The translations under genes and the position numbers were made by a program. Of a stretch of DNA of 64,000 nt, positions 32,912 through 57,661 are shown one piece after another; position 1 is the stretch's first letter, and the number at the start of each line of letters is the position of its first letter. The notes beneath the pieces were generated by a model. It was not told the DNA's origin. It searched no databases and worked only from the letters and a program-made list of their open reading frames with translations. Origin of the DNA: an uncultured Gammaproteobacteria bacterium (GTDB taxonomy: Bacteria; Patescibacteriota; Patescibacteriia; JAHIZJ01). The stretch is from positions 13,586-77,585 of the forward strand of contig CAZQLY010000007.1 of assembly GCA_964594455.1 (NCBI GenBank), given 5' to 3'.

Positions 32912-32927
32912 ATTTTTATTCTACCAT

Positions 32928-32955
32928 AAAAAAAGAGGACTGGTTATCGGTCCTC
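32928..32955 (-). terminator. intrinsic terminator of GC-rich lipoprotein gene
   Basis: Hairpin gaggac-N9-gtcctc overlapping the stop codon, followed on the minus strand by TTTTTTT. Confidence 0.55.
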
Positions 32956-33585
32956 GGGATTGTAGTCAATGTACGGAATCGGCTCGTCATCAAAGTAGAT
33001 CAACTCGGGGCTGATGTTGGTAATGGGCCGAATTTGGCTTCTCCGTACCGGGATAGCAAACGGCATGCCAGCTTGCATGTGAAAAGCCATGGCGTGTAGC
33101 GAAATGGGCTCGTCTCTGGAATAGCGCCTGACATAATTGCCGAACCGTCTGGAATCTGGATGGACCCAGGCGCTATTCGCGACCAGGACCTCAAAGGTTG
33201 TTGTATCACTATCTGCAGTGGCCACGTTGATTAAAAGCCACTGATCTCCCGGAATCTCTTCGACCCGAGAAGCCTCGTCCTCAGCCGCAATGGCTGATCC
33301 GGCAATCGCACCCATTGGCCCCAAGAGCACAAATCCCAGAACACCACCGCCAGCCGCCGCGCCGCCTACATCACCGGCAACGATCATGGATCCATCTTCG
33401 CTGTGATAAGCATAGTTAACTACCCAGCCTCGATAATACTCAATCCGCATCAAAGAGTCTTGGGTGGCTATTTCCCTTCTCAGTTGCTCATTTCGTTCCG
33501 TCTTCTCCGTCTCGGTGGCACCAAATCCACAACCGCAGGCAATAATCAATATTGCCAAAAAAGGAATCCAACTGTACACCTTCAT
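32944..33585 (-). CDS. lipoprotein with glycine-zipper segment (GC-rich island)
   Basis: Lipobox LIIACGC. GDVGGAAAGGGVLGFVLLGPMGAIAGSAIAA glycine zipper. Strong SD AAGGAGG 8 nt before ATG. Own TTGACT-N17-TAAGAT promoter at 33635-33663. Visibly higher GC than neighbours. Confidence 0.6.
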   Translation of the reverse strand: MKVYSWIPFLAILIIACGCGFGATETEKTERNEQLRREIATQDSLMRIEYYRGWVVNYAYHSEDGSMIVAGDVGGAAAGGGVLGFVLLGPMGAIAGSAIAAEDEASRVEEIPGDQWLLINVATADSDTTTFEVLVANSAWVHPDSRRFGNYVRRYSRDEPISLHAMAFHMQAGMPFAIPVRRSQIRPITNISPELIYFDDEPIPYIDYNPEDR

Positions 33586-33634
33586 AGTACTTCCCTCCTT
33601 TTACCCACTATCAAAAAGAACAATCAAGGATAAA

Positions 33635-33663
33635 ATCTTAGCAAATGGTTATTTAATAGTCAA
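33635..33663 (-). promoter_or_regulatory. sigma70-like promoter for GC-rich lipoprotein gene
   Basis: TTGACT -35, 17-nt spacer, TAAGAT -10 on the minus strand, about 45 nt upstream of the ATG. Confidence 0.35.
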
Positions 33664-33665
33664 TT

Positions 33666-34985
33666 TTATTCGTAGCGCAAAGCCTGAACCGGATCCAAAC
33701 GTGATGCTTTCCAAGCTGGATATAATCCAAATATAACTCCGGTCCCAACCGAAACTAATACCGCCAGTAATATTGCGTCTACGGAAAATACTGCGCTAAC
33801 ACTGACATAGCTGGTAACAATATTAGTAAGTATCTTTCCGATTACTATGCCGAGAATACCTCCCACGCCGGTTAATATTATTGATTCGGTTAAGAACTGA
33901 ATCAGAATGTGTCTGGTTTTGGCACCCACAGCTTTTCTCAAACCTATTTCTTGCGTTCGTTCAGTCACAGAAACCATCATAATATTCATAATTCCAATTC
34001 CACCGACTAATAATGATATAGCGGCCACGCCCGTTAACATATTAGTAAAGACCGATATGGCGTCATCACGAGCATCCAGGATATCTTGAGCGGTCGTAAC
34101 CATAAAATCCGCATCATCAACGTTGTCATAGCCATGATTTTCCAATATAGAGTCCTCTATCTTGGCAGCTAAACTATTAACTGACTCCTCATCAACCGCA
34201 TCCACCGTGATGGAATTAATATTTTCTTGTTCAAAATTAGCCATAGCTGTTGTGTATGGCAGATAAATATTTCTATTACGAACACCAAATCTCATCATTG
34301 GAGCCCCCTCTTCTCCATCTTCGCTTCCTTCTCCTTTCAAAATGCCCGCTATTTTATATTCAATATCACCGATGTTAATCAAGCCATTAATTAATGATTC
34401 CGAATCATCAGAAAATTCTTCAGCCGCACCGCTGTCAAAAATAACGATATTCTCGGCACTTGAGATATTATCTTCCGAAAAATCACGTCCGTATTCTATC
34501 CCTCTGTCGTTCATCACAAAGTAGTTATTTGAAACTCCGATAGCGTTAAACTGCATATCCTCGTTGTTGAAATTGATTGTAATATTGCTGTTTACTTCCG
34601 GGGTAGCATATTCCAACAACCCACCTTCAAAAGTCAAAACATCATCATAATCTTCGGTGGTAAGAGTTGGATCGGTGGGCCGCATTCTAAAAGCCGCCAT
34701 ACCGCCTCCTGGGCCTCCTCCAATACCTAATGCGCCGCCTTCATCCCGATCCTCATCTTCCGATTCTTCTTCCTCTTCAGCAATGGCTTGCGAACTAACC
34801 GTTATAGTTTTAGCTCCTAAAACCGAAAAATTTCCGACCACGTTTTCTTTAACGCCCTGGCCCAGCGAATACAAAGAGATGACTGCGGCAATGCCAATTA
34901 TAATTCCCAAAATTGTCAGGAAACTTCTACCTTTATTGGCTAATATTGCAGTGGTTGACTGGCTAATGATTGACCCCACTTTCAT
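33666..34985 (-). CDS. ABC transporter permease, FtsX/MacB-like, with Glu/Asp/Gly-rich insert
   Basis: Same architecture as 26715-27941 (N-terminal TM, large extracytoplasmic domain, C-terminal three-TM FtsX domain, ..ALRYE end). Insert EEEEESEDEDRDEGGALGIGGGPGGG. Confidence 0.8.
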   Translation of the reverse strand: MKVGSIISQSTTAILANKGRSFLTILGIIIGIAAVISLYSLGQGVKENVVGNFSVLGAKTITVSSQAIAEEEEESEDEDRDEGGALGIGGGPGGGMAAFRMRPTDPTLTTEDYDDVLTFEGGLLEYATPEVNSNITINFNNEDMQFNAIGVSNNYFVMNDRGIEYGRDFSEDNISSAENIVIFDSGAAEEFSDDSESLINGLINIGDIEYKIAGILKGEGSEDGEEGAPMMRFGVRNRNIYLPYTTAMANFEQENINSITVDAVDEESVNSLAAKIEDSILENHGYDNVDDADFMVTTAQDILDARDDAISVFTNMLTGVAAISLLVGGIGIMNIMMVSVTERTQEIGLRKAVGAKTRHILIQFLTESIILTGVGGILGIVIGKILTNIVTSYVSVSAVFSVDAILLAVLVSVGTGVIFGLYPAWKASRLDPVQALRYE

Positions 34986-35662
34986 ACTGGTTCGTCTTTA
35001 ATTATTTTCCCGTCCAACAATCTGATTATTCGATGAGCATAGCAAGCAATTTCTTCTTCGTGGGTGATAAGAACCACTGTGGTACCCTCTTTGTTTATAT
35101 CCGAAATAATGCTCATTATGCTTTTAGCTGTCATAGAATCAATATTTCCGGTTGGCTCATCTGCTAATAGTATGGTTGGTTCTTTAATTAAAGCTCGTGC
35201 TATAGCCACTCTTTGAATCTGGCCACCTGACAGCTCATTGCTTTTGTGCTCAATGTGGTCAGTCAATCCCAGCTTCTCTATCAACTTCAAAGCTCTAGTA
35301 AAATCACCACTGCGGCTTCGGTAGATTGTCGGCAGCATAATATTATTAACCACAGAAGTTCTCTTCAAGAGATTGAATCTTTGAAAAACAAAACCGATTT
35401 CCTCATTGCGAACATCAGCCAGCTGATTAGCGCTTAGATTTTTTGTATCTTTGTCGTTTAATCTATACTCTCCATCATAATGCTTGTCCAAAAGGCCTAA
35501 GATATGCAACAAAGTAGACTTCCCGCTTCCGGAAGGTCCCATTATGGCCACAAATTCTCCTCTTTTTACCTTTAAATCAATACCGCGCAAAGCGTTAGTC
35601 TGAGCACCTCGTTTAGCTTCATATATTTTTTTAACGTCTTTTAATTCAATTGCAGATTCCAT
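34982..35662 (-). CDS. ABC transporter ATP-binding protein (MacB-like)
   Basis: Walker A GPSGSGKST, signature LSGGQIQRVAIARAL, Walker B LLADEPTGNID. Confidence 0.9.
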   Translation of the reverse strand: MESAIELKDVKKIYEAKRGAQTNALRGIDLKVKRGEFVAIMGPSGSGKSTLLHILGLLDKHYDGEYRLNDKDTKNLSANQLADVRNEEIGFVFQRFNLLKRTSVVNNIMLPTIYRSRSGDFTRALKLIEKLGLTDHIEHKSNELSGGQIQRVAIARALIKEPTILLADEPTGNIDSMTAKSIMSIISDINKEGTTVVLITHEEEIACYAHRIIRLLDGKIIKDEPV

Positions 35663-36049
35663 CTATTTTGTGAGCTGGTAATATATCTCATTAGCCTGAG
35701 ATAGCGTAATCCCACCCTCCTCAACCGCTTGATCTAGCATTTGTTCAAACTTGGAAACAAATCTCTTATTGTCAGTTCCCATCGGAGAACTCTCTTTCAT
35801 TTCATCAATAGCGTCATAATCAACATCTCCGGTATCTTCATCTATGAATCTTGATATATCCATAAATCCCGGTCCTTGCCGGCCTCCAAACGATCCCTGA
35901 AAATCCCTATTGACCATGGGTCTAAGTTCATCACTACTTTGACCGCCTGGACTGATAATAATGTAAACCAATAAAGATACAGCAACCAGTGAACTGAATA
36001 TTGAAATAGTTTTAAAGGTTTTTAGTTTTTTATAAACTTTTTCATCCAT
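35663..36049 (-). CDS. small membrane-anchored protein, first gene of the second ABC operon
   Basis: 128 aa, one TM helix (ISIFSSLVAVSLLVYIIISP). Stop adjacent to the ABC ATPase start. Acidic C-terminal region. Confidence 0.5.
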   Translation of the reverse strand: MDEKVYKKLKTFKTISIFSSLVAVSLLVYIIISPGGQSSDELRPMVNRDFQGSFGGRQGPGFMDISRFIDEDTGDVDYDAIDEMKESSPMGTDNKRFVSKFEQMLDQAVEEGGITLSQANEIYYQLTK

Positions 36050-36467
36050 ATTTATGCATTTACGCTTATAATACAGCGAACTTGGAAAAATTATTTCAAT
36101 AACATCTCTTTATTTACCTCATCAATCAAGAAATACAAAAAAATATTCCTTGACCCCCGTTATACAACGGGGCAGGCTTGTGGAGAGATACAATGATGTA
36201 TATCTCCACTCGTTCGCTTCACTCTCTCGGTCGAGAAATAATTTACTCCTAGACTCTCAAATCAATATTAGGGATGGGGGGTATATTAATCTATTCGATG
36301 AAATAATATCTTTTTGGGATTGTAATACATGTGAAGGGGTTCGATCGCGTCTAGGGCCGGATGAGAGGACCGAAGATGACGGTCGATCCCTAATTTCCGG
36401 CCCTGGCTATGTCCACCCTCTCTGGACAATGTCATTGCCGAAAAATTAACAATTAAAAATAAGTAAT

Positions 36468-36926
36468 ATGAAAAAAAGAACTCTCATGTCGATTGCCATG
36501 CTGGTCGGTGTAGGAATTATCACCGCTGGTATTGCCTCGGCGAACGGAGGTTTCGGGTTTGGCTTCGGAGCTGACTTGGACCCTGAAGAAGCAGCCAATC
36601 TGGCCACAGAACGCTTCCAGCATCAAGCCGATTTGCTTGAAACTGATGTCGATACAGTCAAGGATGCCTGGTCTCAAGGCAAGCGAATAGACGAACTTGC
36701 TGAAGAGCTCGGTATTGATGAAGAAGCTCTTCAGGCACGTATGCAGGAAGAGCATCAAGCCAGAATGGAAGAGCGCCTACAGTCAATGGTTGATCAGGGC
36801 GTGATAACTCAGGAGCAAATGCAAAACCGCCTTCAATTCATGGAGGACAATGGTTTCCAGGGCAAAGGATTTGGTTCAGGCATGGGTCACCATCATGGTG
36901 GCAAAGGCTTAGGACTCGGTTTCTAA
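36468..36926 (+). CDS. secreted Gly/His-rich periplasmic protein (CpxP/ZraP-like helical protein, tentative)
   Basis: Signal peptide, GGFGFGFG tract, helical Glu/Gln-rich core, C-terminal GSGMGHHHGGKGLGLGF metal-binding-like tail. GC-rich relative to flanks. No SD. Confidence 0.55.
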   Translation: MKKRTLMSIAMLVGVGIITAGIASANGGFGFGFGADLDPEEAANLATERFQHQADLLETDVDTVKDAWSQGKRIDELAEELGIDEEALQARMQEEHQARMEERLQSMVDQGVITQEQMQNRLQFMEDNGFQGKGFGSGMGHHHGGKGLGLGF

Positions 36927-36960
36927 CCCTAAACTAAAAATCCACCCCCCCCTAATTAAA

Positions 36961-36994
36961 GAATCCGCCTTAGTACAGGGCGGGTTCTTTTATT
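36961..36994. terminator. bidirectional intrinsic terminator
   Basis: Hairpin gaatccgcc-N9-ggcgggttc followed by TTTTATT. Overlaps the stop of the convergent alpha/beta-hydrolase pseudogene. Confidence 0.6.
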
Positions 36995-37748
36995 GGATTT
37001 CTTTTATTAAAGTATTAAAGAATTGATGTTTAGCCACCTTCTCAAGCCAGGACTTATGACCGCATTTAGGCAGTAAAATGACCTTAAAATCGCTCAAAAT
37101 GGCTTCCAGAGGCTCTTTTACGCCGGTATAGGGGTGAGTGTGTCCTTATCACCGTGGATTGCTATTACAGGGCATTTTATCGATTGACCCATTTTTAGCA
37201 ATTTTCCGCTTTTTCTCAGCTTGTCTGCATCCGGCCAAATGCTCTGGTAGATTTCATAATCGTATTTAATTTCTGCTGAATCTTCTAACGCATCATGGGA
37301 ATCCAGCTGGGACATCAATTTTCCAAACTTTTTGAAAACCTCATTCTTATTACTGTTAGATGAATCGTTTAACTCTCTACTTAATTTATCAAACTGTTGC
37401 TTGTGCTTGCTACTCATTTTTTGAAAAACGAGCCTTATTCATCACATCAACATATTTAGCGTCAAAAGGTCCGCTCGATATTAGGATCAACTTCTTAACC
37501 AAATCAGGATAACGAGCGGCAAAAATCCACCCTAGCCAGGCTCCCCAAGAATATCCAACTAAAACATAGGGCAGCTCACCAGTATCTGTTATTTGCTGTT
37601 TTAATTCTTCCACCTGCCCACTGACAGTCTTCTTTGTTTGATTAGGAGCAATAACACTAAAAGATCGGCTCAGGTACTCAGCCACTGGCTTCATTTCTCC
37701 GACTGCACCGGGGCCGCCGTGGATTAAGACAACTCGTGTTTTTCCCAA
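36990..37748 (-). pseudogene. alpha/beta hydrolase (proline-iminopeptidase-like) disrupted by two frameshifts
   Basis: Three consecutive frames (37748-37410, 37417-37118, ~37137-36990) encode the HGGPG oxyanion region, the GYSWGA nucleophile elbow, the HGDKDTL acid region and the C-terminal CGH histidine. TTG start. Confidence 0.6.
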
Positions 37749-37754
37749 ATTGTT

Positions 37755-37877
37755 TTACTTAGATTTATTTTCTTTTCCCGCTTTTGAAAGTAAGAAAATC
37801 ATCCCTCCTAAGCACACCAAAAAAATACCAATGCCGATTGGCGAGCCCCAGCCTAATACCATAAATGCATCTTCCAT
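37755..37877 (-). CDS. candidate 40-aa hydrophobic peptide (MEDAFMVLGWGSPIGIGIFLVCLGGMIFLLSKAGKENKSK)
   Basis: Unannotated small ORF with ATG start. Ends 6 nt before the hydrolase pseudogene start. No SD. Confidence 0.25.
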   Translation of the reverse strand: MEDAFMVLGWGSPIGIGIFLVCLGGMIFLLSKAGKENKSK

Positions 37878-37947
37878 GGTTTTGAAATTTAATAATAATA
37901 ATTAAATAATATACTTATTTCGGAAATATCACAATAAAAAAAGAGGC

Positions 37948-38121
37948 TCAAGTTTGAGACTCGGCCTCGCCGTTGGTATCATCACCCAGTCTATCCAGGT
38001 GATCCGCATCACTCTCTTCCAGCGACCTGATGTATGAAATGAACCACCAGGTCATTCCCCAACCGATCAATAGAACTACCAGCACAACAGCTGCCAACAC
38101 TATTTTGAAAAAGAACCACAT
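37948..38121 (-). CDS. 57-aa small membrane protein (MWFFFKIVLAAVVLVVLLIGWGMTWWFISYIRSL..)
   Basis: Not in the ORF table (below 60 aa). GGGAGG SD 9 nt upstream of ATG. Begins 15 nt after the stop of the 38137-38481 ORF. Followed by hairpin gaggc-N16-gcctc plus TTTTTTT (minus strand). GC-rich. Confidence 0.4.
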   Translation of the reverse strand: MWFFFKIVLAAVVLVVLLIGWGMTWWFISYIRSLEESDADHLDRLGDDTNGEAESQT

Positions 38122-38136
38122 CTGAACGACCTCCCT

Positions 38137-38481
38137 CTAGTCAGAGCTGCAAACAATCCTAGCCTGCATCTTGGCGGTCATACCCTCACATTCAAGGTTG
38201 ACCCATTTGATGCCGCGGTTAGGCTTGCCAACGCGAGCAACCCTCACCTTGCCTGGACCGCCTTGGATCTGGGTGAATTCCTTTTCCCAGCCCTCTTCGA
38301 ACTTGACGATGGTCGGACCGACAGCCGGAACACCCAATGGTGCGGCAGGATAATGACGGCTTCGGCCTGTCCCTGGGGGACACAAATGCGCACTGTGTTC
38401 ATCGCTTACCTCCTGTTGTGGTTGTAATAGCCAAAAAGAACACACCGAACACATCTTACTACTTATTATTAAATACAGCAA
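38137..38481 (-). CDS. hypothetical protein, GC-rich, start and frame uncertain
   Basis: Long ORF frame encodes ..VGPTIVKFEEGWEKEFTQIQGGPGKVRVARVGKPNRGIKWVNLECEGMTAKMQARIVCSSD. A canonical start (CAGGAGG-N6-ATG at 38402) is in a different frame and reads MNTVRICVPQGQAEAVIILP.. before terminating. Suggests frameshift, sequencing indel or internal TTG start. Confidence 0.4.
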   Translation of the reverse strand: MLYLIISSKMCSVCSFWLLQPQQEVSDEHSAHLCPPGTGRSRHYPAAPLGVPAVGPTIVKFEEGWEKEFTQIQGGPGKVRVARVGKPNRGIKWVNLECEGMTAKMQARIVCSSD

Positions 38482-38525
38482 ATATAATAAGCCGGGGGTA
38501 CCGGCATATTACATTTCTAGTTTTA

Positions 38526-38879
38526 TTATTTTTTTTCAGTGATTCTGTTCAAACATAAAAACAAAATACCTACTATGAAAAATGGCAGCCCAGATACTGC
38601 CACCGCGTATAACTCATTACGACCAGCTGTTACATGGGCAAAAATACCAAAAGCTATTCCAGTTATTGCTAAAACCCAGCCCCCCACCTTTTCGTTCTTC
38701 CAGGCAATAATCAAACCTATAGCGTTGCAAATAATCAATACTGTAATACCAAATGACTCCCAGCTAAAGCTTTCACCACCACCTACCCCATAACCCACTC
38801 CCATTAATACCCAAAAAGATACTAGGATAACACCTATCGTCCTTGAAGTAATACGCAATATTTTCTCGTTTTTGATCAT
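38526..38879 (-). CDS. small polytopic membrane protein
   Basis: 117 aa, four predicted TM helices, Gly-rich loop GYGVGGGESF. Confidence 0.5.
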   Translation of the reverse strand: MIKNEKILRITSRTIGVILVSFWVLMGVGYGVGGGESFSWESFGITVLIICNAIGLIIAWKNEKVGGWVLAITGIAFGIFAHVTAGRNELYAVAVSGLPFFIVGILFLCLNRITEKK

Positions 38880-38882
38880 CGC

Positions 38883-39623
38883 TTAAATTATATCAATAGT
38901 TTCTGGCTTAAGTAAACACCAGTCATGATTCCCATCTATGGATGTAATCTTACTATTGGATATTTTTTTATTAATTGAATGGGCATAATCTTTTTTAAAA
39001 ACCTCATCATCTTCTCCCCAAAGAATTATAGTTCTTGTTTTTTTTCGATTCATCACCTGAAATAATTCATTGGTGTAATCACTTTGTCCAAGGTTAACTG
39101 CTCGATTTAGTTTAAATAAGTTCAAAATGATTTCAGAAATAAAGTCTCTGGCAATTATAAATGATACGAATTTATTTGGATATTTTAGGATACCCCGAAC
39201 GGCTTTTAACAAGAATAAAAAAGAGATTTTATTAATGGTATATTTCGCCTGCTGACCAGTTGAGCTGACTAATATTAATTTCTTTACCATTGGTAACTGA
39301 GCTGCCAATTCCAAAGCAATGTCTCCACCAAATGAGTGGCCAGCAACCACTATATCAGATAATTTTAGTGACTTGATAAATTCGCTTAAAAATAAAGACA
39401 GGTCGTTTATTAGCCATTTTTCTTTTCCGTCAAAAGGGTTTTGGAAATAAGGAATAGTTGGTGCAATGATTGTATACTTCTTTGACAATATTTCAAATGT
39501 CTTAATATACGTTGTTGGTTTTAATCCAGCTCCATGCAGCCACAGCAAATAGGGCCCGCTTCCACAAGTCCAATAATCAGCCTGAATCCCTTTATATTCA
39601 AATGTTTTTTTATTCATATGCAT
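38883..39623 (-). CDS. alpha/beta hydrolase (intact)
   Basis: HGAG oxyanion motif (LWLHGAGL), GHSFGG nucleophile elbow, 246 aa. A paralogous-looking pseudogene lies at 36990-37748. Confidence 0.75.
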   Translation of the reverse strand: MHMNKKTFEYKGIQADYWTCGSGPYLLWLHGAGLKPTTYIKTFEILSKKYTIIAPTIPYFQNPFDGKEKWLINDLSLFLSEFIKSLKLSDIVVAGHSFGGDIALELAAQLPMVKKLILVSSTGQQAKYTINKISFLFLLKAVRGILKYPNKFVSFIIARDFISEIILNLFKLNRAVNLGQSDYTNELFQVMNRKKTRTIILWGEDDEVFKKDYAHSINKKISNSKITSIDGNHDWCLLKPETIDII

Positions 39624-39679
39624 TAAGATAAATAACTTAGCATTATAGCTATCTAAATTGTCTAGTCAAGTAGGCAGCA

Positions 39680-39707
39680 TTGACAACACAAAAATAATTG
39701 CTATTAT
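39680..39707 (+). promoter_or_regulatory. near-consensus sigma70 promoter with extended -10
   Basis: TTGACA -35, 16-nt spacer, TGcTATTAT extended -10, about 40 nt upstream of the SD/ATG of the 39749 gene. Confidence 0.45.
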
Positions 39708-39748
39708 TCATGCGTCATAGTTGTCCAGTACAAAGCAAAGGAGGGCTT

Positions 39749-40168
39749 ATGGACAGTAATTTGCCTGTGACGAAGACAGCCGATGTCAGCTTCGGTGACT
39801 TCACTTACGTTGCTCGTTACTATCGCATCACACCACTGGGAAGGTTCGCGGTCGGATTCGTTTTTGCTCTCGAACCACTGCAACCCGGCTCCGAGTGGCC
39901 AATCGATTGGGAGTCCTTCCTCTTCGCAGTAGCAGACGCTATTTCCTCTGCGGAAAGGATCGGTTCCTTGGGTGTTGGGCTCGTCTTCCTGGAGACTCAC
40001 CATGATGATGAGGAGCTTTGCCCAGGTGAAAGTGCCAGCCATGATCTGAGCATCGATATCACTGAGCAGGAAGCCCATATGCACAGGAGGGATAACGCAC
40101 CAGCTGATGCTCTTACGGCTTTTGCTGACCTGATCAGCGAACCAGAAACTGCGCCCACCACTGAGTGA
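39749..40168 (+). CDS. hypothetical 139-aa acidic protein (GC-rich island)
   Basis: AAAGGAGGG SD 5 nt before ATG (MDSNLPVTKTADVSF..), followed by terminator. The ORF table extends to 39698 but that upstream Met has no SD. The antisense ORF 39704-40084 is judged spurious. Confidence 0.55.
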   Translation: MDSNLPVTKTADVSFGDFTYVARYYRITPLGRFAVGFVFALEPLQPGSEWPIDWESFLFAVADAISSAERIGSLGVGLVFLETHHDDEELCPGESASHDLSIDITEQEAHMHRRDNAPADALTAFADLISEPETAPTTE

Positions 40169-40177
40169 TCAGCCCCT

Positions 40178-40206
40178 AGACCTGCTCCAACGTAGGTCTT
40201 TTTTTA
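40178..40206 (+). terminator. intrinsic terminator
   Basis: Hairpin agacct-N10-aggtct followed by TTTTTTT. Confidence 0.5.
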
Positions 40207-40248: not shown

Positions 40249-41157
40249 ATGAAAAAGAGCTTAAGAATCTTTCTTATTTCTATTGCTTCAATTGCTCTTT
40301 CGGCAACTATTATTCATGCTGCTAGCTTGAACGTAACTAACCAGTTAGGCGGTTCTTCTGGTGATTCATTCGATATTGATGGAGCTATAATAGTAGATTC
40401 TATGAGGGTTGGCGCCCAAGGAGTGGGTGGTGTAACTTTTTTTAATGGGACTATCGTTAATGAAACAACGAACGACAGTGGCTTAGGCATGCCCGTAACA
40501 TTTGGAGATGATGTTAGAATAGATGGTTTAATCTACCGGTCTGAAATCGGTGGTGACAACCCAATCAAAATTGCTGACAGCCTGAGGCCGTCAAGTAACG
40601 GAGCATATTCATTAGGATCTTCAGATTATAAATTTAAAGATGCCTACCTTTCTGGAACACTGACAGTAGACACATTATCAGTTTCCAGTCTTGAAGGATC
40701 GGGTATAGTAAGCAGTAATAACATTCTTAACGGGTCTATTAAAGAGGATGATATTCTTCAAAATGCTATTACCAGTGATTTAATAGATAATGGCACAATT
40801 GCAACCGCCGACATATCAGACGGTGCTGTTAGTTATGATAAAATTAGCGGTCCAGGAGGCACGAATCTTCCCATTGCTTACGGAGTCATTGACGCTGATG
40901 GTAATATTCTCGGGGGTACATCAAATTTCACATGCACGTTAGTTGATGATGCTCCCGGCGTGGGTGATTGGTATGAGATTAGCATCGAAGGCGAATCTCT
41001 AAGTGCCATACAACACGTAACAATTGCAAATACTCTTGCCGACGGTGGTATGGCAAATATATTTTCTAATGACGGTAACGTAGTAATATATTTCAGAGAC
41101 TTTGATGGAGATTATGTATTACCACAAGGATTCTATTTTGTAACTTATAAATTATAG
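40249..41157 (+). CDS. secreted Gly/Ser/Asp-rich beta-type surface protein (fibre-like)
   Basis: Signal peptide MKKSLRIFLISIASIALSATIIHA, repetitive G/S/D/T-rich sequence. Confidence 0.55.
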   Translation: MKKSLRIFLISIASIALSATIIHAASLNVTNQLGGSSGDSFDIDGAIIVDSMRVGAQGVGGVTFFNGTIVNETTNDSGLGMPVTFGDDVRIDGLIYRSEIGGDNPIKIADSLRPSSNGAYSLGSSDYKFKDAYLSGTLTVDTLSVSSLEGSGIVSSNNILNGSIKEDDILQNAITSDLIDNGTIATADISDGAVSYDKISGPGGTNLPIAYGVIDADGNILGGTSNFTCTLVDDAPGVGDWYEISIEGESLSAIQHVTIANTLADGGMANIFSNDGNVVIYFRDFDGDYVLPQGFYFVTYKL

Positions 41158-45773: not shown

Positions 45774-45777
45774 ATTT

Positions 45778-49027: not shown

Positions 49028-49106
49028 GTTTTTATTGTAACATTTTTAGAAACATATAAATATAGCAAAATATTATCATCCTGTCAATGCTAAGACGCTA
49101 ACAACC

Positions 49107-49134
49107 TTGACAAAATCCTGTTTTCGTGTACAAT
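49107..49134 (+). promoter_or_regulatory. near-consensus sigma70 promoter upstream of GC-rich gene
   Basis: TTGACA-N16-TACAAT, about 90 nt upstream of the AAAGGAGG SD and ATG at 49228. Confidence 0.45.
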
Positions 49135-49227
49135 ATACTGTTCTGTTTTCAGAACGTTGATTTCAAAATCCAAGGGTACTTGTGCCCTAAAAAACTTGAT
49201 TCAAGCCCTGCGCAAAGGAGGAATGCC

Positions 49228-50640
49228 ATGTCCGCAAACTCAAGGGTCAGGTGGTGGATGGTACTGCTAGCAGTACTGCTTTTTCTTCTACCTGCTTCCA
49301 TTTGGTTCGGCTGGCTCCTCCGGGGACCATCTGAACCACCGACTCGCCTCGAGACCCAGTTCACTGACACGTGCTTCTGGGATCCTGAGGCCGATCTGAA
49401 CTTCGGTACCGTGACAGTGGGGACAACAAACACTCTTCGTTTCCCGCTGTACAACGATTCCGACTCACGGATCGTGATTCATCTGTCAGCTTCGAGTGAT
49501 CAGTTCACTCTGGAGCCCAACGGTGGTGACTACACTATGCTCCCACAGCAGACTGTTGTCATCGCTGTTACTTTCTGTCCGGACACCTTAGGGCCTCAAC
49601 ACTGCCGTGTTTCCATGGGTCACCCCAGTCTGGATGAGATCATCTGTTTCGGCCTGGCCACGACTGGCCCGACTCGCAGCAAGTATGATCAGCCGTTCGA
49701 TACACATTCGATCTGGAATACCCCGATCGGCAGCGAGGCGGACTACGTTCTAGCTGGATTCAAGCCCGGGAAGTATATCGACATCGACCGTGACCACATC
49801 CTGAGCTCTGGCCAGCAACGTAAGCTCCTGGCTCACGAGTCGTGGCCAAACATCTGCGAGGGAGACAAATTCCTCTCCGATGTCTGGGTACCCGATGACT
49901 ATGTTGTGCCTTCCGATGGCAAGAACAACGCCGCCGCCTTCATCCTCCCGGATGGAGAGCATATTTACCAAGCCAATCCCATCTCACGGTGCGAAGAGGC
50001 TGGTCCAGTCTACGCTGGTTGGGCGGCAGTACCAGAGGCGGTGACCAGCATCTATGATGAAGGTCTCTATGGCGGTCATGGTGGCTCCAGTCTGTCCAGT
50101 ATCGGAGGCACTATTCGACTAGGCGAACTAACCTCAGACGAGCCGATTGGCCACGCTCTCAAGATTCTTGTTTTGGCGGCTCGCTACTGCTCTGACGAGG
50201 ATGGTGGCTTCCGCTGGCCGGCTTACCGGGCTGATGCTTACGCCCTCGACCCGGACAATCCCCTGAGGTACAACCAACTGGGTTCGGCTTCTCCGGCGGT
50301 AAAGATGGGATCGCTTCTAGCTGTCCCTGACTGGGTGGACCTCAATTCACTCGGTCTCCAGACGTACGCCGCCTGGAAAATCGCTGTGGCGCTCCAAGAC
50401 TACGGAGCGTACATAGTCGATGATTCGGCCTGGCACACATACTATCTCTGCGCTGAGCAGGGCGTGGGTCAGGAATTCCAGAATACTTACGATCTGGGCA
50501 TAGCCGCTCAAGCCGGTCCTTGGTATGACGACATGATGTGCCTTATCCAATGGCTGCATGTTGTCGACACCAATGGTCCCGACACCATTGGTGGTGGCGG
50601 CGCTCCTTGGAGACCGCTAGCGCCACCTATCGGCGACTGA
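49228..50640 (+). CDS. secreted protein with N-terminal anchor, Ig-like (ASPM/HYDIN-type) beta-sandwich and large C-terminal Trp-rich domain (GC-rich island)
   Basis: Start taken at the Met preceded by AAAGGAGG (the ORF table's 49126 start lies in AT-rich DNA without SD). Hydrophobic N-terminus WWMVLLAVLLFLLPASIWFGWLL. FGTVTVGTTNTLRFPLYNDSDSRIVIHL Ig-like motif. Visibly high GC. Confidence 0.6.
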   Translation: MSANSRVRWWMVLLAVLLFLLPASIWFGWLLRGPSEPPTRLETQFTDTCFWDPEADLNFGTVTVGTTNTLRFPLYNDSDSRIVIHLSASSDQFTLEPNGGDYTMLPQQTVVIAVTFCPDTLGPQHCRVSMGHPSLDEIICFGLATTGPTRSKYDQPFDTHSIWNTPIGSEADYVLAGFKPGKYIDIDRDHILSSGQQRKLLAHESWPNICEGDKFLSDVWVPDDYVVPSDGKNNAAAFILPDGEHIYQANPISRCEEAGPVYAGWAAVPEAVTSIYDEGLYGGHGGSSLSSIGGTIRLGELTSDEPIGHALKILVLAARYCSDEDGGFRWPAYRADAYALDPDNPLRYNQLGSASPAVKMGSLLAVPDWVDLNSLGLQTYAAWKIAVALQDYGAYIVDDSAWHTYYLCAEQGVGQEFQNTYDLGIAAQAGPWYDDMMCLIQWLHVVDTNGPDTIGGGGAPWRPLAPPIGD

Positions 50641-50658
50641 TTCGCTCTTTCCTTCCTC

Positions 50659-50692
50659 GGGCCAGAAGTTTCACGCTTCTGGCCCTTTTTTT
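50659..50692 (+). terminator. strong intrinsic terminator
   Basis: Perfect 10-bp stem gggccagaag-N7-cttctggccc followed by TTTTTTT. Confidence 0.7.
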
Positions 50693-50712
50693 ATTTACCT
50701 AGAGGTATTATT
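50688..50712. repeat. 25-nt inverted-repeat copy L (TTTTTATTTACCTAGAGGTATTATT)
   Basis: Exact reverse-complement match to 53776-53800. Partial similarity continues (tgagaggg vs agagagag). Immediately 3' of a GC-rich terminator hairpin in both copies. Confidence 0.6.
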
Positions 50713-50920
50713 TGAGAGGGACTAAAAGTATGAATCATAACAATATTACGTAATCTTTAGTCTCCGTAAATAACTTAGGCGGATATTTGAGATGCCGGAT
50801 CCCGGTCCGGCATGACGATGAGGGGTGTAAATAACCCTCGTGAAAACAATGTGCATGTTGACATTTTTCAATTTCTTCGTTAGAGTATTCAGATTTGGTA
50901 ATTTATAGTAAAATATACAT

Positions 50921-53775: not shown

Positions 53776-53800
53776 AATAATACCTCTAGGTAAATAAAAA
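53776..53800. repeat. 25-nt inverted-repeat copy R (AATAATACCTCTAGGTAAATAAAAA)
   Basis: Reverse complement of 50688-50712. Abuts the terminator at 53801-53840. Confidence 0.6.
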
Positions 53801-53840
53801 GAGAGCCGGATAACCTCGAAAGGTTAACCGGCTCTTTGCT
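53801..53840 (-). terminator. intrinsic terminator of the GC-rich minus-strand operon
   Basis: Hairpin agagccgg-N18-ccggctct with internal aacct/aggtt sub-stem. Followed on the minus strand by CTTTTTATTT. Confidence 0.7.
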
Positions 53841-53867
53841 AATGTGCGTTACCCTGTTTGCCCAGAG

Positions 53868-54707
53868 CTACTCCTCGCAGAGTCTGGCGTTGCCATCCTC
53901 CGGGAGTTCAATGAACAACTTTCCGTAGCTGAAGGGCCAGGCTTCGTGCCCTTCATAGTCCTTAAGCCGGAGGTACAGTCCACTACATCGACCACAGGGG
54001 TCGACCGTGAACGTAACCGACTCAGTCGCCTTGGGAACATTCTTGACTTCCGGATCTGCTCCCCGACGACATTCGTAGCCACAGAGGTACAGAGTGACAG
54101 GGCCTACGACATTCAGTTTCGGCGGGTGGACCTCGTTGTAAAGATTCACCTTGGCCGTAATCTGATACTGACCGCCGTTCCAGACGATCCTCCAGATACC
54201 GTACGTCATGACCGTTTCCCCATCCGCCTTGGGCTGGACCGAGGGTTCGGCCGTTGCCGCCTGATTGGTCTGGGGAACCGTTCTCGGAACCGTCCGAGCA
54301 CCCGTATTGCTCACGCTGCTCGTCCGAGCGGTATTGCTCGTCTTGCGCGTGACCGGAGCCGTCTTGATCACCGGCGGTTCGGGAACAGCGTGTTCGCCGA
54401 CCGTACCGGGACCGTTGTCCTCGCGAACAACCTTCTGCTCGGATTCGGGCTTGGGCTGTCCGGCGGTAGTGACGGAATCGTCCGGAGCTCCGGTCTCGTC
54501 CTTCTTCTCGACGACCTTCTTCTGCTCATCCTGGGCGACCGGCTCGTCGGCGGGCTTCTTCTGCTCGTCGGCGGGTGTGGTGGCTTCCTTTTTGAGCGTG
54601 ACCTTTTCCTTGGGCGCCGGATCGTCGTCGTCCGCCATGACCATCGGGGACACGGTGAACATCATCGCAACGAACAGCGCCAGCATGATCCACAGAGACT
54701 TCTTCAT
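53868..54707 (-). CDS. secreted protein: signal peptide, Pro/Glu/Lys-rich linker, Cys-rich C-terminal domain (GC-rich island)
   Basis: MKKSLWIMLALFVAMMFTVSPMVMA signal. AAGGAGG SD. Six C-terminal Cys (CGYECRRG..CGRCSG..LCEE). Antisense ORFs 53844-54893 and 54265-55005 judged spurious (GC-rich DNA). Confidence 0.55.
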   Translation of the reverse strand: MKKSLWIMLALFVAMMFTVSPMVMADDDDPAPKEKVTLKKEATTPADEQKKPADEPVAQDEQKKVVEKKDETGAPDDSVTTAGQPKPESEQKVVREDNGPGTVGEHAVPEPPVIKTAPVTRKTSNTARTSSVSNTGARTVPRTVPQTNQAATAEPSVQPKADGETVMTYGIWRIVWNGGQYQITAKVNLYNEVHPPKLNVVGPVTLYLCGYECRRGADPEVKNVPKATESVTFTVDPCGRCSGLYLRLKDYEGHEAWPFSYGKLFIELPEDGNARLCEE

Positions 54708-54767
54708 TTCGACACCCCTCCTTCAATTGGGTATTGTTCGCTTCTTGCTTCAGGTCACGACCGGCGC

Positions 54768-55640
54768 TCAACCACCGATCTCAATCCCGTACAGTCGGTC
54801 GTCTTCGGGCCAGAGATTGGCGATCGCATCCAGCTGGTTGAGCATGAATGTGAATACGGTCCAGCCTCCGCCGAGATCGACCAGGTTCATTAGTTCGGTG
54901 GCATGTTCGAAATCGCCAGGCAAACCAACGTACACGCCGGACCGCAGTTCAGTACCGTCGGCCAGTTGCAGCCTCAGATACGTAACCGCGCCCTTGGCGA
55001 CGTAGAACTTGGCGGTCCACATGCCGTCCTCCCAATACGTCGTATGGGGGGCAAACCGGAATGTAGTCCAGGTTCCCATCCAGAATACCGGAACGTCGGG
55101 ATCAGCCGGATTGTTCATGTAGCCCTCGGGAAGAGAATTCCCGGTGTACCACACTTGTACTTCCACCAGATCGTCGACATCCGTCATCGGGTCAATCATC
55201 AACTGTCCGTCTTCGACGTAGAGCGAGAATTCCCGATAGACTTCGAAGTCTGAGGCGTTGATCGCGTTCAGTTCGACTCCGTTGACGGAGATATCGAGCA
55301 TTCGGTGATACCGATTGTCCGAATCCCTCCGCCAGAAGCCGACGCTGAACTTCTCGTTTCCCCAGACCTGTCGATCGAACGTACCGACGACCTCGCCGCC
55401 CTGAAAAGTGCCAAACAGGATCATGATGTTGGGGTCCTGCAGGTATCCCGGGACGACTGAGCCGGAGATGTAGACTTCCTCACCATCCAGCGCCATCGGC
55501 GACAAAAGGGTGATGCTGAACTCCGCATTGGTCTCCTCCTGGTTGCCGGGGTTGGTGATATCCCACGAGTCGCGGGAACACCCGGATGCCAGACCGAGGA
55601 TAGCCAGCACGGCCAGAATTGCCAGTTTGCTAAAACGCAT
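54768..55640 (-). CDS. lipoprotein of unknown function (GC-rich island)
   Basis: Lipobox LGLASGC. GGGAGG SD 9 nt upstream. 290 aa beta-rich. Confidence 0.55.
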   Translation of the reverse strand: MRFSKLAILAVLAILGLASGCSRDSWDITNPGNQEETNAEFSITLLSPMALDGEEVYISGSVVPGYLQDPNIMILFGTFQGGEVVGTFDRQVWGNEKFSVGFWRRDSDNRYHRMLDISVNGVELNAINASDFEVYREFSLYVEDGQLMIDPMTDVDDLVEVQVWYTGNSLPEGYMNNPADPDVPVFWMGTWTTFRFAPHTTYWEDGMWTAKFYVAKGAVTYLRLQLADGTELRSGVYVGLPGDFEHATELMNLVDLGGGWTVFTFMLNQLDAIANLWPEDDRLYGIEIGG

Positions 55641-55718
55641 CGTCTCTTTCCTCCCTTGAAAATGGGCATCTAGGAGTATATCCGGGGCATCCGGATAACT
55701 CCGGATGCCCCACCCCTG

Positions 55719-57533
55719 CTACCAGCTGTAGTCGAATCCGACCTTGACCCAATGCCGATCGGTCTTGTAATCATGACCGGCGATCAGATCGTGGTCTTCG
55801 CCATTCGGGATGAACTTGTACGACCCTTTGAACCGCCAATAGCGATTGGGCCGGTACTCAAATCCGATTCCCGGTCCGGACCATTCGAAGGCCCAGATAT
55901 CCGAATCATACTCCCACCAATCGTATGAGCCATAGAAGACCCACTTGACGGTGGGCTTGAAGCCGATCCGGGCTTCGATCACCTGCATGGTGTCGGCGAC
56001 AAACGTCTCCGTTCGACCGTCGAAGTGCCGCGACTGCTCCTTTCGCAGGATCTGGTTGTATCCGATCCGCGAGTAGAACCAGCCGGGTTCCAGAGTCAGG
56101 TTGGCATCGAGGTTGCGCTCGAGATTGGTGCCAGCTTTGTAGTTGACCTCGTAGTAACCCCGAGCCGGGGTAACTCCGAGCACTCGGCCGTACCAGCCAT
56201 ACCCATCGACATACACGCCGTCTTCTTCCACATGCGTCTTCGTCGGAGAGACAACTGTGTAGTTGAGATAGGTACGCTGCCCGGCACCATACCATCCGCC
56301 TCCTTCGAGGTAGACGGCGGTACCAAGGTCGTTGCCGTAGATGTTGGAGCGTAAACCGCCTCGGTATTCACCGATGTGGTTCGCATCCGCGATCGCTTGC
56401 TCGACCCGCAGTACGGCGGCCAGATCTCGGAACCAGAAAGTTCCGTCCCAGCCGCTCAGACGAGGCAGCCATTCGATGCCAGAGTAGGCGCTCCATTGTT
56501 CGTCGCCGCCTCCTTGAGAATGGAATCCGTCGACCCAGAGAACACCGCCCTGGACAAAGTCCCGAGCATGTTCCACTTCTTTCTTCTTCTTGACTGGCGG
56601 AGTGGGCGGCGGCGTATAACCAACACGCTCTTCCACCTGTGTCTCAGCCTCATACTCCAGAGGCAGCGCAACGAAGGCGCCGTTCTGGCAGTCCAAGAAC
56701 TGATAGAGGAAATGCCTGTAGCCGCCATTATCCACATAGGGATATTCGACGGCCAGAAGCGAGTCAACCGGTTCGAGGTTCCGCACGTCCTTCCAGTAGC
56801 AGACCGTGGTATCCCAGACCTTGACTTCCTGGCTCGTTCTTCCACCGAAGACGAGCCCGTCGAGAACCAGAGGCCGATCACAAGTTGAGTAGATCCATAC
56901 CGTATCGGGCAGGCTTGCCTCGACCAGCGAGATCCACATCTGTCGCACCTTCTCGGGCACGTTCATCAGTTCCACCTGCTTGCGCAGAGGAATGCCCGCT
57001 GGATCTCCGAGAACGAAGTTCCACCGGTTGATCTGAGTGTCCGTTTCGGTTACGAAGACTTCTTCGCCCTGATAGACCGTGTTACGGTCCACCTGGTTCC
57101 ACTTCTTCAGGGTGTCGACGGGAACGCCGACTTCCTGAGCGATCTTGCCCCACGATTCGCCCTTCCGGATGGATCGTGATGCGGGTAGTTCAATGGCTTT
57201 GGGCTTAGCTCTGCGCTCGACGCGCAGATTTGTCCCTGACACCTTTCTCCAGTCATCACCATCGCAGTATGCGAGAACGGTGTAATAGCTGAAGTAGGCA
57301 TCAGCGCTCGTCTCTTCCAAGACGAAGTGGCTGGTCGCCGAAACAAGTTCCGACTTCACGCCACCGTTGAGCTGGATGAGTCCCACTTCGATCATGCCAT
57401 CGGCACGATTCGACTTGAGCTCCTTCGTGACGATCTGATTGTCTTCCAACGGAGGCTGAATGCAATCAGCCAGCGCCAGGTTGACTCCCAGCAGAGCCAC
57501 GAACACGATCACCAGACACAGCATTTTCCTCAT
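55719..57533 (-). CDS. outer-membrane-type protein: signal peptide, LysM domain, C-terminal beta-barrel ending in aromatic residue (GC-rich island)
   Basis: LysM-like segment GESWGKIAQEVGVPVDTLKKWNQVDRNTVYQGEEVFV. C-terminal ~270 aa of alternating aromatic/polar beta-strand pattern ending ..KVGFDYSW (typical OMP C-terminal signature). GGAGG SD. Confidence 0.6.
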   Translation of the reverse strand: MRKMLCLVIVFVALLGVNLALADCIQPPLEDNQIVTKELKSNRADGMIEVGLIQLNGGVKSELVSATSHFVLEETSADAYFSYYTVLAYCDGDDWRKVSGTNLRVERRAKPKAIELPASRSIRKGESWGKIAQEVGVPVDTLKKWNQVDRNTVYQGEEVFVTETDTQINRWNFVLGDPAGIPLRKQVELMNVPEKVRQMWISLVEASLPDTVWIYSTCDRPLVLDGLVFGGRTSQEVKVWDTTVCYWKDVRNLEPVDSLLAVEYPYVDNGGYRHFLYQFLDCQNGAFVALPLEYEAETQVEERVGYTPPPTPPVKKKKEVEHARDFVQGGVLWVDGFHSQGGGDEQWSAYSGIEWLPRLSGWDGTFWFRDLAAVLRVEQAIADANHIGEYRGGLRSNIYGNDLGTAVYLEGGGWYGAGQRTYLNYTVVSPTKTHVEEDGVYVDGYGWYGRVLGVTPARGYYEVNYKAGTNLERNLDANLTLEPGWFYSRIGYNQILRKEQSRHFDGRTETFVADTMQVIEARIGFKPTVKWVFYGSYDWWEYDSDIWAFEWSGPGIGFEYRPNRYWRFKGSYKFIPNGEDHDLIAGHDYKTDRHWVKVGFDYSW

Positions 57534-57661
57534 GGGTCACCCCTCCTTCTCTTCGTCTTTCCTGTTTCGAAAATAGATTGTCAGTGAGCTATCCGAGAGC
57601 AAGAGAGCTCTCAAGTTCAATGGATTGCCCACTGAACTCATCGAGACCTCTTGCTCGATAT

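What the first reader, a model, noticed from the sequence alone, without database searches (positions are those of the whole stretch)
32928..40206. Series of small GC-rich single-gene cassettes, each with its own consensus-like promoter and/or strong SD and mostly its own terminator
At least four short GC-rich units share the same architecture: the lipoprotein 32944-33585, the Gly/His-rich secreted protein 36468-36926, the 38137-38481 ORF plus 57-aa membrane protein, and the 139-aa protein 39749-40168. Three of them show a near-consensus sigma70-like promoter (TTGACT-N17-TAAGAT, TTGACA-N16-TGcTATTAT) and an AAAGGAGG(G) SD. The 38402 ORF start has a CAGGAGG SD. Most end in a clean intrinsic terminator. 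Native neighbours are AT-rich and mostly lack an SD. The recurrence of this packaging, all encoding envelope, secreted or membrane products, suggests repeated acquisition of foreign single-gene modules, or a shared mobilisation mechanism not marked by any recognisable integrase or transposase.
Basis: partly seen in the sequence, partly recalled or inferred. Interest (0 to 1): 0.6.

Follow-up and report, generated by a model that had tools for sequence, protein, structure and literature searches.

The report
GC-rich orphan gene islets with SDs
Three small GC-rich orphan gene units with strong ribosome-binding sites sit among the AT-rich, SD-less genes of an uncultured CPR-type bacterium. They look like ordinary horizontally acquired accessory genes rather than a new mobile-cassette system, and the fourth "cassette" is a native gene.

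Summary
The compositional and SD contrast is real. In this 41% GC window, all 8 genes with foreign-type composition carry a strong SD (duplex -11.5 to -12.7 kcal/mol). None of 51 native genes does at its annotated start (Fisher p = 4.5e-10).

Three of the four named units fit the description. These are C1 (lipoprotein, 32944-33585), C3 (two genes, 38402-37948) and C4 (39749-40168). Each has a leader, SD, ORF and terminator. All three are orphans in every library searched.

The Gly/His-rich gene C2 (36468-36926) does not fit. It has no SD. It has homologues in six other low-GC metagenome contigs, where it is always GC-richer than its contig, so it is native.

I found no flanking repeats, no integrase or transposase, and no similarity between cassette flanks, so nothing supports a shared mobilisation mechanism. 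Two larger units of the same architecture (49.1-50.7 kb and 53.8-57.6 kb) are syntenic and under purifying selection in a sister genome (86% nucleotide identity). The class is therefore stably inherited.

C3A is frameshifted. The envelope bias is partial (6 of 8) and is shared by native neighbours. Promoters are not distinctive.

Best reading: moron-like, horizontally acquired islets that kept an SD-led design in a genome whose own mRNAs seem leaderless or short-leadered. This is ordinary in kind and tidy in detail.

The parts
33635..33663 (-). C1 promoter-like site, TTGACT-N17-TAAGAT, in the AT-rich spacer just after the stop of the MacB permease gene
   Evidence: 9/12 match, TG before the -10. 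Read directly.
33590..33602 (-). C1 Shine-Dalgarno, AAAAGGAGGGAAG, 4 nt before the ATG
   Evidence: -12.3 kcal/mol against the anti-SD.
32944..33585 (-). C1 CDS, 213 aa. Signal peptide plus lipobox (LIIAC), Gly/Ala zipper-like stretch, 52% GC, GC3 0.55. Orphan.
   Evidence: No Pfam, PHROG, NCBIfam, PADLOC or PDB match.
32928..32955 (-). C1 intrinsic terminator, GAGGAC-9-GTCCTC plus T7. The stop codon lies in the loop. It ends 17 nt before the nitroreductase start codon.
   Evidence: (-9.8 kcal/mol).
38137..38402 (-). C3A coding region, with the SD CAGGAGG just upstream at 38409-38415. The SD-led ATG is at 38402. The coding signal moves to the -1 frame about 60-75 nt downstream and ends at TAG 38139-38137. 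This is a frameshifted gene or an assembly indel. About 88 aa if repaired. Orphan.
37948..38121 (-). C3B CDS, 57 aa. N-terminal hydrophobic segment and acidic tail. Its SD, GAGGGAGG (38130-38137), overlaps the C3A stop codon.
   Evidence: (-12.6).
37936..37968 (-). C3 terminator, a hairpin plus T7. The C3B stop codon lies inside the stem.
   Evidence: -14.5 kcal/mol for the fragment.
39680..39707 (+). C4 promoter-like site, TTGACA-N16-TATTAT with TGc upstream. It is back-to-back with a native promoter-like site at 39669-39642 on the other strand.
   Evidence: both 11/12.
39737..40168 (+). C4 SD (AAAGGAGGG, 39737-45) and CDS 39749-40168. 139 aa, acidic (pI 4.3), no signal peptide, 54% GC. Orphan.
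   Evidence: (phmmer against 1.84 billion representatives found only itself).
40178..40206 (+). C4 intrinsic terminator, an 8-bp stem plus T7.
   Evidence: -14.9 kcal/mol, z -3.1.
36468..36926 (+). C2, a native gene and not a foreign cassette. 152-aa secreted Gly/Glu/Gln/His-rich protein. No SD.
   Evidence: 44% identity, E 2e-37, to a gene beside the orthologous ABC operon in L084. (6 loci, the gene always 6-12 GC points above its contig)..
36958..36990 (.). Strong hairpin between C2 and the convergent broken hydrolase gene. Probably a bidirectional terminator.
   Evidence: -24.7 kcal/mol, z -4.5.
49107..50692 (+). A unit of the same class, outside the finding. TTGACA-N16-TACAAT (49107-49134), a leader of about 90 nt, SD AAAGGAGGAA, a 470-aa secreted Ig/ASH-like protein (49228-50640, 56% GC), and a terminator at 50659-50692.
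   Evidence: z 11; promoter and SD conserved in the sister genome, dN/dS 0.09.
53796..57553 (-). A three-gene operon of the same class, outside the finding. 604 aa (LysM, 55719-57533), 290-aa lipoprotein (54768-55640) and 279-aa secreted protein (53868-54707). Each gene has a strong SD. Terminator at 53796-53835. 57-60% GC, GC3 about 0.7.
   Evidence: z 12-17; dN/dS 0.09-0.24.

Best explanation
**What the units are.** C1, C3 (two genes) and C4 are three unrelated, self-contained expression units. Each has a sigma70-type promoter in an AT-rich junction, a leader of 35 nt or more, a strong SD, one or more ORFs, and an intrinsic terminator. In C1 and C3 the terminator overlaps the stop codon.

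**Where they came from.** They are horizontally acquired orphan accessory genes, small islets comparable to phage morons. They lie in a variable, envelope-gene-rich stretch of the core chromosome of a CPR/Patescibacteria-type bacterium. The donor gene pool was GC-richer and SD-using.

**Why the contrast is so sharp.** The recipient's own genes lack SDs, and many appear to be transcribed as leaderless or very short-leader mRNAs. The imported SD-led design therefore stands out. It has probably been retained because a GC-rich, leadered mRNA needs an SD to be translated.

**How they behave now.** The units are expressed independently of their neighbours and are insulated by their terminators. Nothing is moving them now. 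The larger members of the same class have been inherited vertically under purifying selection.

**C2.** C2 is a native gene that only mimics the GC signal.

**Shown:** composition, SDs, terminators, orphan status, C2 homology, and synteny and selection for the large units.

**Inferred:** foreign origin, leaderless native mRNAs, and why the SD is kept.
For: - SD contrast: 8/8 GC-rich genes against 0/51 native genes.
- Synonymous GC excess: z = 4-5 for the small units and 11-17 for the large units, against a native sd of 1.6.
- Codon-choice log-likelihood per codon is -0.08 to +0.13 for the small units. Natives score -0.37 +/- 0.08 with a maximum of -0.15, and the large islands score +0.09 to +0.34.
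- Amino-acid usage is typical of GC-rich genomes, with Lys at 2% against 7.7% in natives.
- GC-rich segments begin at the SD or start codon and end at the terminator.
- The small units have no relatives anywhere searched.
- The junctions are reproduced in an independent Logan assembly.
- The large units are syntenic in sister contig L003, with conserved promoter and SD and dN/dS of 0.09-0.24.
- Among native operon-leading genes, 14 of 20 have a -10-like hexamer ending 4-22 nt before the start codon. The hexamers upstream of 49027 and 50921 are conserved in the sister.
- HGT islands are documented in Patescibacteria (PMC12455944).
- The moron definition (own promoter and terminator, deviant GC) comes from PMC3594210.
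Against: - No donor or homologue was found, so foreign origin rests on composition and signals only.
- The lineage is poorly sampled (the closest permease relative is 49% identical). Fast-evolving native genes could therefore also appear as orphans.
- C2 shows that a native gene can be persistently GC-richer than its genome, and it is also a codon-usage outlier (-0.09).
- Presence or absence of C1, C3 and C4 in a sister genome could not be tested.
- C3A is frameshifted, so at least one unit may be decaying or mis-assembled.
- The leaderless inference is confounded by higher AT content near start codons, and there are no transcript data.
- The 16S 3' end is not in the window.
Confidence: 0.6

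Rival explanations
1. These are native, lineage-specific genes and not HGT. On this view a conserved class of mostly envelope proteins in this lineage has intrinsically GC-rich coding sequences and uses leadered, SD-dependent initiation. The rest of the genome uses leaderless or SD-independent initiation.
For: - The large units are syntenic, under purifying selection and equally GC-rich in the sister genome.
- The C2 family keeps a +6 to +12 point GC offset across genomes of 29-46% GC.
- There are no mobility genes or repeats.
- Orphan status is expected for fast-evolving surface proteins in a poorly sampled lineage.
- dS is lower in GC-rich genes than in natives (0.28-0.70 against 0.61-1.57, p = 0.006). 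This could reflect constraint on synonymous sites.
Against: - GC3 of 0.54-0.73 against 0.28-0.48 in natives is far larger than C2's effect (z = 2.2 against 4-17).
- No selective reason is known for such a shift.
- C2, the one demonstrably native GC-rich gene, lacks an SD.
- C3A and C4 are not envelope proteins.
Confidence: 0.22
2. A shared cassette-mobilisation system (integron-like, MITE/IS-borne or recombinase-driven) inserted the units. Each unit would be marked by a common recombination site.
For: - The packaging recurs.
- The T7-AT tails of the C1 and C3 terminators are 15/16 identical (32923-32938 and 37931-37946).
- A 97-nt repeat follows the terminators of the two large units.
Against: - No direct or inverted repeats bracket any small unit.
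- The orientations are mixed, and the units are separated by native operons.
- No integrase, transposase or relaxase was found in the Pfam scans of 59 window proteins; about 11 native genes were not scanned.
- The 16-nt similarity is the generic stem end plus T-tract of a terminator.
- The 97-nt repeat has no copy near the small units. It is missing from the sister genome, which still carries the large units, so it arrived after them.
Confidence: 0.05
3. The GC-rich segments are artefacts or non-coding. They would be either chimeric joins from a GC-richer organism in the metagenome or GC-rich structured RNA genes.
For: - GC-rich islands in AT-rich genomes are often RNA genes.
- The contig is a MAG. 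It has apparent frameshifts, two in the hydrolase at 37003-37748 and one in C3A.
Against: - Logan contigs L001 and L002 span the junctions at 100% identity, although they come from the same run.
- The large islands recur in a second sample.
- Rfam gives nothing, even at E<=1.
- In each unit the SD, ATG, ORF and terminator are in register.
- C1 has a lipobox and C3B has a TM segment.
- Codon-position GC periodicity is present.
- dN/dS is well below 1 for the large units.
Confidence: 0.04

Closest known systems
Phage morons (HK97/HK022 type; PMC3594210)
   Same: One or two genes with their own sigma70-type promoter and intrinsic terminator. The GC content differs from the neighbours. They are inserted between unrelated genes, and the products are often membrane or surface proteins.
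   Different: These units are not in a prophage. The surrounding genes are core chromosomal (ClpB, ABC transporters, hydrolases, PBP). There is no phage homology. Insertion relative to a cassette-free relative has not been shown.
Horizontally acquired genomic islets and orphan genes in Patescibacteria (PMC12455944)
   Same: Compositionally deviant segments in streamlined CPR genomes that are attributed to HGT. Many encode proteins of unknown function.
   Different: These are very small (0.45-0.65 kb). No donor is identifiable. They show an unusually clean SD-versus-no-SD contrast with native genes. The larger members have been stably inherited.
Integron gene cassettes
   Same: Small, mostly single-ORF units of foreign composition encoding orphan proteins.
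   Different: Integron cassettes are promoterless. They end in attC sites and are arrayed in one orientation next to intI. Here each unit has its own promoter-like site and terminator, the orientations are mixed, and native operons lie between them. There is no intI and no attC-like repeat.
Genomes with dual initiation modes (leaderless or SD-independent alongside SD-led genes, as in Actinobacteria, Deinococcus and Bacteroidota; from my own knowledge)
   Same: The native genes lack SDs, and their -10 boxes abut the start codons. A minority of genes carry canonical SDs.
   Different: Here the SD-led minority coincides exactly with compositionally foreign genes. No transcript or ribosome data exist for this organism.

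Membership tests
Phage moron | Independent transcription unit: own promoter upstream and factor-independent terminator downstream | tested here: met
   Promoter-like sites for C1 and C4. Only a weak candidate for C3 (8/12, read). Terminators for all three. These are sequence predictions only.
Phage moron | Nucleotide composition differs from flanking genes | tested here: met
   52-56% GC against 41%.
Phage moron | Located within a (pro)phage genome, as an extra insertion relative to related phages | tested here: not met
   The neighbours are core cellular genes. There are no PHROG or phage hits. No cassette-free relative is available.
Integron gene cassette | attC recombination site at the 3' end, and an array next to an intI integrase | tested here: not met
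   No shared imperfect inverted repeats at cassette ends. No integrase domain in the window proteins scanned. Orientations are mixed.
Classical genomic island or IS/MITE-borne insertion | Flanking direct repeats or terminal inverted repeats, a tRNA target, and mobility genes | tested here: not met
   No tRNA in the window. No bracketing repeats. No transposase or integrase.
Horizontally transferred gene (generic) | Atypical composition at synonymous sites | tested here: met
   z = 4.0-4.8 for C1, C3A and C4. z = 2.2 for C3B (56 codons) and for C2. Native maximum 3.4.
Horizontally transferred gene (generic) | Patchy distribution: absent from close relatives, or phylogeny nested in another lineage | not testable with these tools
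   No sister contig covers 32-41 kb. There are no homologues from which to build a tree.
C2 family (conserved secreted Gly/Glu/Gln-rich protein of low-GC CPR-like genomes) | Sequence homology over the full length, and recurrent genomic association | tested here: met
   44% identity, E 2e-37, next to the orthologous MacB operon. Five further loci at 40-53% identity, four of them beside a sigma-factor-like gene plus a membrane-protein gene; I called these sigma/anti-sigma from reading the sequences, without a domain search.

The most novel reading that the evidence does not exclude
The genome may run two translation-initiation regimes. Housekeeping genes would be leaderless or SD-independent. 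A discrete set of GC-rich, SD-led and mostly envelope genes would form a separately controllable expression class that is kept under purifying selection. Its SDs, leaders and synonymous GC would be maintained by selection rather than being a fading import signature. That would make SD presence a functional regulon marker in a CPR symbiont, for example for surface remodelling on host contact.
Probability: 0.12. Interest if true: 0.6.

Novelty: new member of a known kind. Interest (0 to 1): 0.3.

Why it matters
If the reading is right, SD presence is an almost perfect marker of compositionally foreign genes in this SD-poor genome (8/8 against 0/51). This has three consequences.
- It gives a cheap second criterion for detecting HGT in CPR and other SD-poor lineages.
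- It implies that the ribosome of this organism still uses the anti-SD even though native genes do not rely on it.
- It shows that small orphan envelope genes can be fixed and kept under selection in a streamlined symbiont genome.

It does not reveal a new mobile element or a new mechanism.

Tried and rejected
**Donor and homologue hunts**
- All were negative for C1, C3A and C4: the 5.8 billion-protein word search, a full phmmer against 1.84 billion representatives for C4, and tblastn against phages (C1 and C4) and plasmids.
- Also negative: IMG/VR scans for C1 and C4, Pfam, PHROGs, NCBIfam and PADLOC, and PDB sequences.
- The large-unit proteins gave nothing in IMG/VR or JGI metagenome scans.

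**Sister-genome test for the small units**
- The permease protein search gave 49% identity at best.
- The 90%-identity clusters of 20 window proteins contain only this genome, apart from the 604-aa protein.

**Structure prediction**
- Models without an alignment were unusable (pLDDT 51 for C4 and 32 for the C-terminal half of the 604-aa protein). No fold searches were run.

**RNA and frameshifting**
- Rfam found nothing at gathering thresholds over the whole window, or at E<=1 over 32.8-40.4 kb.
- I considered programmed -1 frameshifting for C3A. There is no X XXY YYZ heptamer at the switch point.

**Mobility and paralogy**
- I considered integron-like or MITE-like mobilisation and rejected it.
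- I considered paralogy among the cassettes. There is none.

**Literature**
- A search for the run accessions found nothing.


Full report
**Context.** The window is 41.2% GC. It carries core chromosomal genes: aminoacyl-tRNA synthetases, MreBC, PBP2, GreA, Alr/Ddl, PriA, Def/Fmt, ClpB, two MacB-type ABC transporters and polysaccharide genes. It also carries a RuBisCO-like gene plus an AMP-phosphorylase-like pair. There are no tRNAs and no Rfam families. The best named relatives of its permease are Dojkabacteria and Saccharibacteria, and the closest relative is only 49% identical. This is a poorly sampled CPR/Patescibacteria-type MAG. It is an NCBI contig of 86.8 kb, and the same DNA occurs in Logan assemblies of run SRR7048224.

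**The observation.** A per-gene table and a maximal-segment scan confirm GC-rich segments at 32935-33540 (53.8%), 37943-38421 (53.7%) and 39763-40198 (54.8%). A weaker one lies at 36336-36984 (49.5%). I scored SDs as duplex energy between positions -20 to -4 and the anti-SD.
- C1 (start 33585) scores -12.3, C3A (38402) -11.6, C3B (38121) -12.6 and C4 (39749) -12.3.
- The 36468 gene scores +0.1.
- Among 51 native genes the best value at the annotated start is -8.2, and most are near 0.
- Only one native gene (61641-62597) has a comparable motif, before an alternative start.

The window holds four more GC-rich genes outside the finding: a 470-aa ASH/Ig-like protein (49228-50640) and a three-gene operon (57533-53868). 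All four have SDs of -11.5 to -12.7. The association is therefore 8/8 against 0/51 (p = 4.5e-10). This is much more than chance and is the most solid part of the finding.

**Composition.**
- Using native codon usage to predict each gene's GC from its protein, C1, C3A and C4 exceed expectation by z = 4.0-4.8. The native sd is 1.6 and the native maximum is 3.4.
- The large units exceed expectation by z = 11-17. C2 is within the native range at z = 2.2.
- On synonymous codon choice, the small units fall between native genes and the large islands, outside the native range.
- Their proteins are Lys/Asn/Ile-poor and Ala/Gly/Pro/Trp-rich.

**Signals.**
However, promoter-like matches are not enriched in the region (37 against 28.4 +/- 6.4).
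- Native genes have equally good promoters: 39669-39642 for the hydrolase and 32055-32027 for clpB, both 11/12.
- The promoters sit in AT-rich DNA outside the GC-rich segments.
- For C3 I could find only a weak candidate, TTGCTG-N17-TAAGAT at 38481-38453 (8/12).
- Terminators are present for C1, C3 and C4. In C1 and C3 the stop codon lies inside the hairpin.

**Gene models.**
- C1 is a lipoprotein, with a signal peptide and the lipobox LIIAC. C3B is a 57-aa protein with an N-terminal membrane segment. C3A and C4 have no export signal.
- The SD-led ATG at 38402 opens a 52-codon frame that is not the frame of the 114-aa ORF 38137-38481.
- Codon-position GC (high-low-high) follows the ATG frame for about 60-75 nt and then the -1 frame. 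No slippery heptamer is present. C3A is therefore a frameshifted gene or carries an assembly indel.
- The neighbouring alpha/beta-hydrolase (37003-37748) is also broken twice, once at an A6 run.

**C2 is native.**
- The closest relative of the ABC operon (L084, JGI) carries, just after its permease, a 149-aa protein that is 44% identical to C2 (E 2e-37). This divergence is similar to that of the permease itself.
- A metagenome scan with the two-sequence profile found five more loci.
- In every locus the gene is 6-12 GC points richer than its contig, across contigs of 29-46% GC. Four loci place it after a sigma-factor-like gene and a membrane-protein gene; I called these sigma/anti-sigma from their sequences alone, without a domain search.
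- Its GC offset is thus intrinsic to the family, and it has no SD. It should be removed from the series.

**Origin of C1, C3 and C4.** All three are orphans, as the summary states. The full list of searches and libraries is under Tried and rejected (main). No cassette protein resembles another. Given the poor sampling of the lineage, orphan status alone does not prove foreign origin. Together with the synonymous-site shift, the amino-acid usage and the SDs, acquisition from a GC-richer, SD-using and unsampled gene pool is the best explanation. Phage or plasmid accessory genes are the obvious candidates.

**Mobility.**
- No direct or inverted repeats bracket the units.
- There is no integrase or transposase among the 59 window proteins scanned against Pfam; about 11 native genes were not scanned.
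- The only shared string (32923-32938 and 37931-37946, 15/16) is the generic stem end plus T7-AT of the terminators.
- The junctions are reproduced at 100% identity in independently assembled Logan contigs.

**What the sister genome shows.**
- A 16-kb Logan contig from another sample (L003, DRR203642) aligns with window 45447-61910 at about 86% identity. It includes both large GC-rich units, at the same positions and with the same GC.
- Their genes are under purifying selection, with dN/dS of 0.09, 0.09, 0.22 and 0.24.
- The promoter and SD of the 470-aa gene and the SD of the 604-aa gene are conserved.
- The class is therefore old, functional and vertically inherited since that split. This is the opposite of an active cassette system.
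- I could not obtain sister DNA for 32-41 kb, so the age of the three small units is unknown.

**Why the contrast is so clean (inference).**
- In 14 of 20 native operon-leading genes, a -10-like hexamer ends 4-22 nt before the start codon. Only 2-4 genes have one in each more distant bin.
- The hexamers upstream of the genes starting at 49027 and 50921 are conserved in the sister.
- This suggests leaderless or very short-leader native mRNAs, which cannot carry an SD.
- The GC-rich units have leaders of about 35-90 nt and need an SD.
- Higher AT content near start codons confounds this count, and no transcript data exist.

**Verdict.** The HGT reading is reasonable for three units and wrong for one. 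The shared-mobilisation reading is unsupported. The closest analogue is the phage moron, but membership fails on the phage-context criterion. The proper label is small horizontally acquired islets of orphan genes, a known kind.

Noticed in passing
window 49107-50692 (+) and 53796-57553 (-): Two larger GC-rich (56-60%), SD-led units encode secreted, lipoprotein or LysM proteins. They are syntenic in sister contig L003 and under purifying selection. My first ORF calls on the + strand at 53844-55253 were spurious (dN/dS about 1); the real genes are on the - strand.
   Followed up: yes
window 50678-50774 (+) and 53715-53810 (-): A 97-nt inverted repeat (82% identity) begins in the T-tract of the terminator of each large GC-rich unit and brackets the native GT and Wzy genes. 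Both copies lie in insertions (about 165 and 290 bp, each with its own GC-rich hairpin) that are absent from the sister genome. It could be MITE-like, small-RNA-like or the ends of an invertible segment. There is no other copy in the window.
   Followed up: partly
window 38325-38345 (C3A) and 37003-37748 (alpha/beta hydrolase): There are apparent frameshifts, one in C3A and two in the hydrolase (one at an A6 run near 37417). These are either real pseudogenes in a decaying, variable region or homopolymer and indel errors in the assembly.
   Followed up: partly
window 36050-36467; L084 2668-3107: The long intergenic leaders (418 and 440 nt) upstream of C2 and of its closest homologue fold much better than shuffles (z -4.4 and -6.7). 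They share a GGAGAGAUA...UCUCC hairpin followed by GTCGAGRAATAWTT. Other homologues have short leaders and lack the motif. Rfam gives nothing. This is possibly a lineage-specific cis-regulatory RNA.
   Followed up: partly
native gene starts across the window, e.g. 32911, 42991, 49027, 50921, 38879: -10-like hexamers end 6-7 nt before many native start codons, and within 4-22 nt in 14 of 20 operon-leading genes. This suggests leaderless or very short-leader mRNAs and explains the lack of SDs.
   Followed up: partly
window 45447-61910 against L003: Synonymous divergence is lower in the GC-rich genes (dS 0.28-0.70) than in native genes (0.61-1.57; p = 0.006). Part of this may be a recombination tract covering 55.4-58.9 kb, because the adjacent native gene 57662-58567 is also low (0.61). 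Otherwise it is unexplained.
   Followed up: partly
window 55719-57533 (-): The 604-aa protein has a signal peptide, a LysM domain and a beta-rich C-terminal half ending ...GFDYSW, with a weak LptD hit (E 1.3e-3). That is an outer-membrane-protein-like ending in a presumed CPR genome. The AF2 model without an alignment was unusable (pLDDT 32).
   Followed up: partly
window 38883-39623 (-) and 40249-41157 (+): These two genes between and beside the cassettes are unusually AT-rich even for this genome (32% GC, z -3.1; GC3 0.28, z -3.0). The 36-41 kb stretch is therefore compositionally heterogeneous in both directions, as expected for a gene-turnover zone.
   Followed up: no
window 32941-32949 and 37948-37950: The stop codons of C1 and C3B lie inside their terminator hairpins. 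The SD of C3B overlaps the stop codon of C3A. The units are tightly packed.
   Followed up: yes
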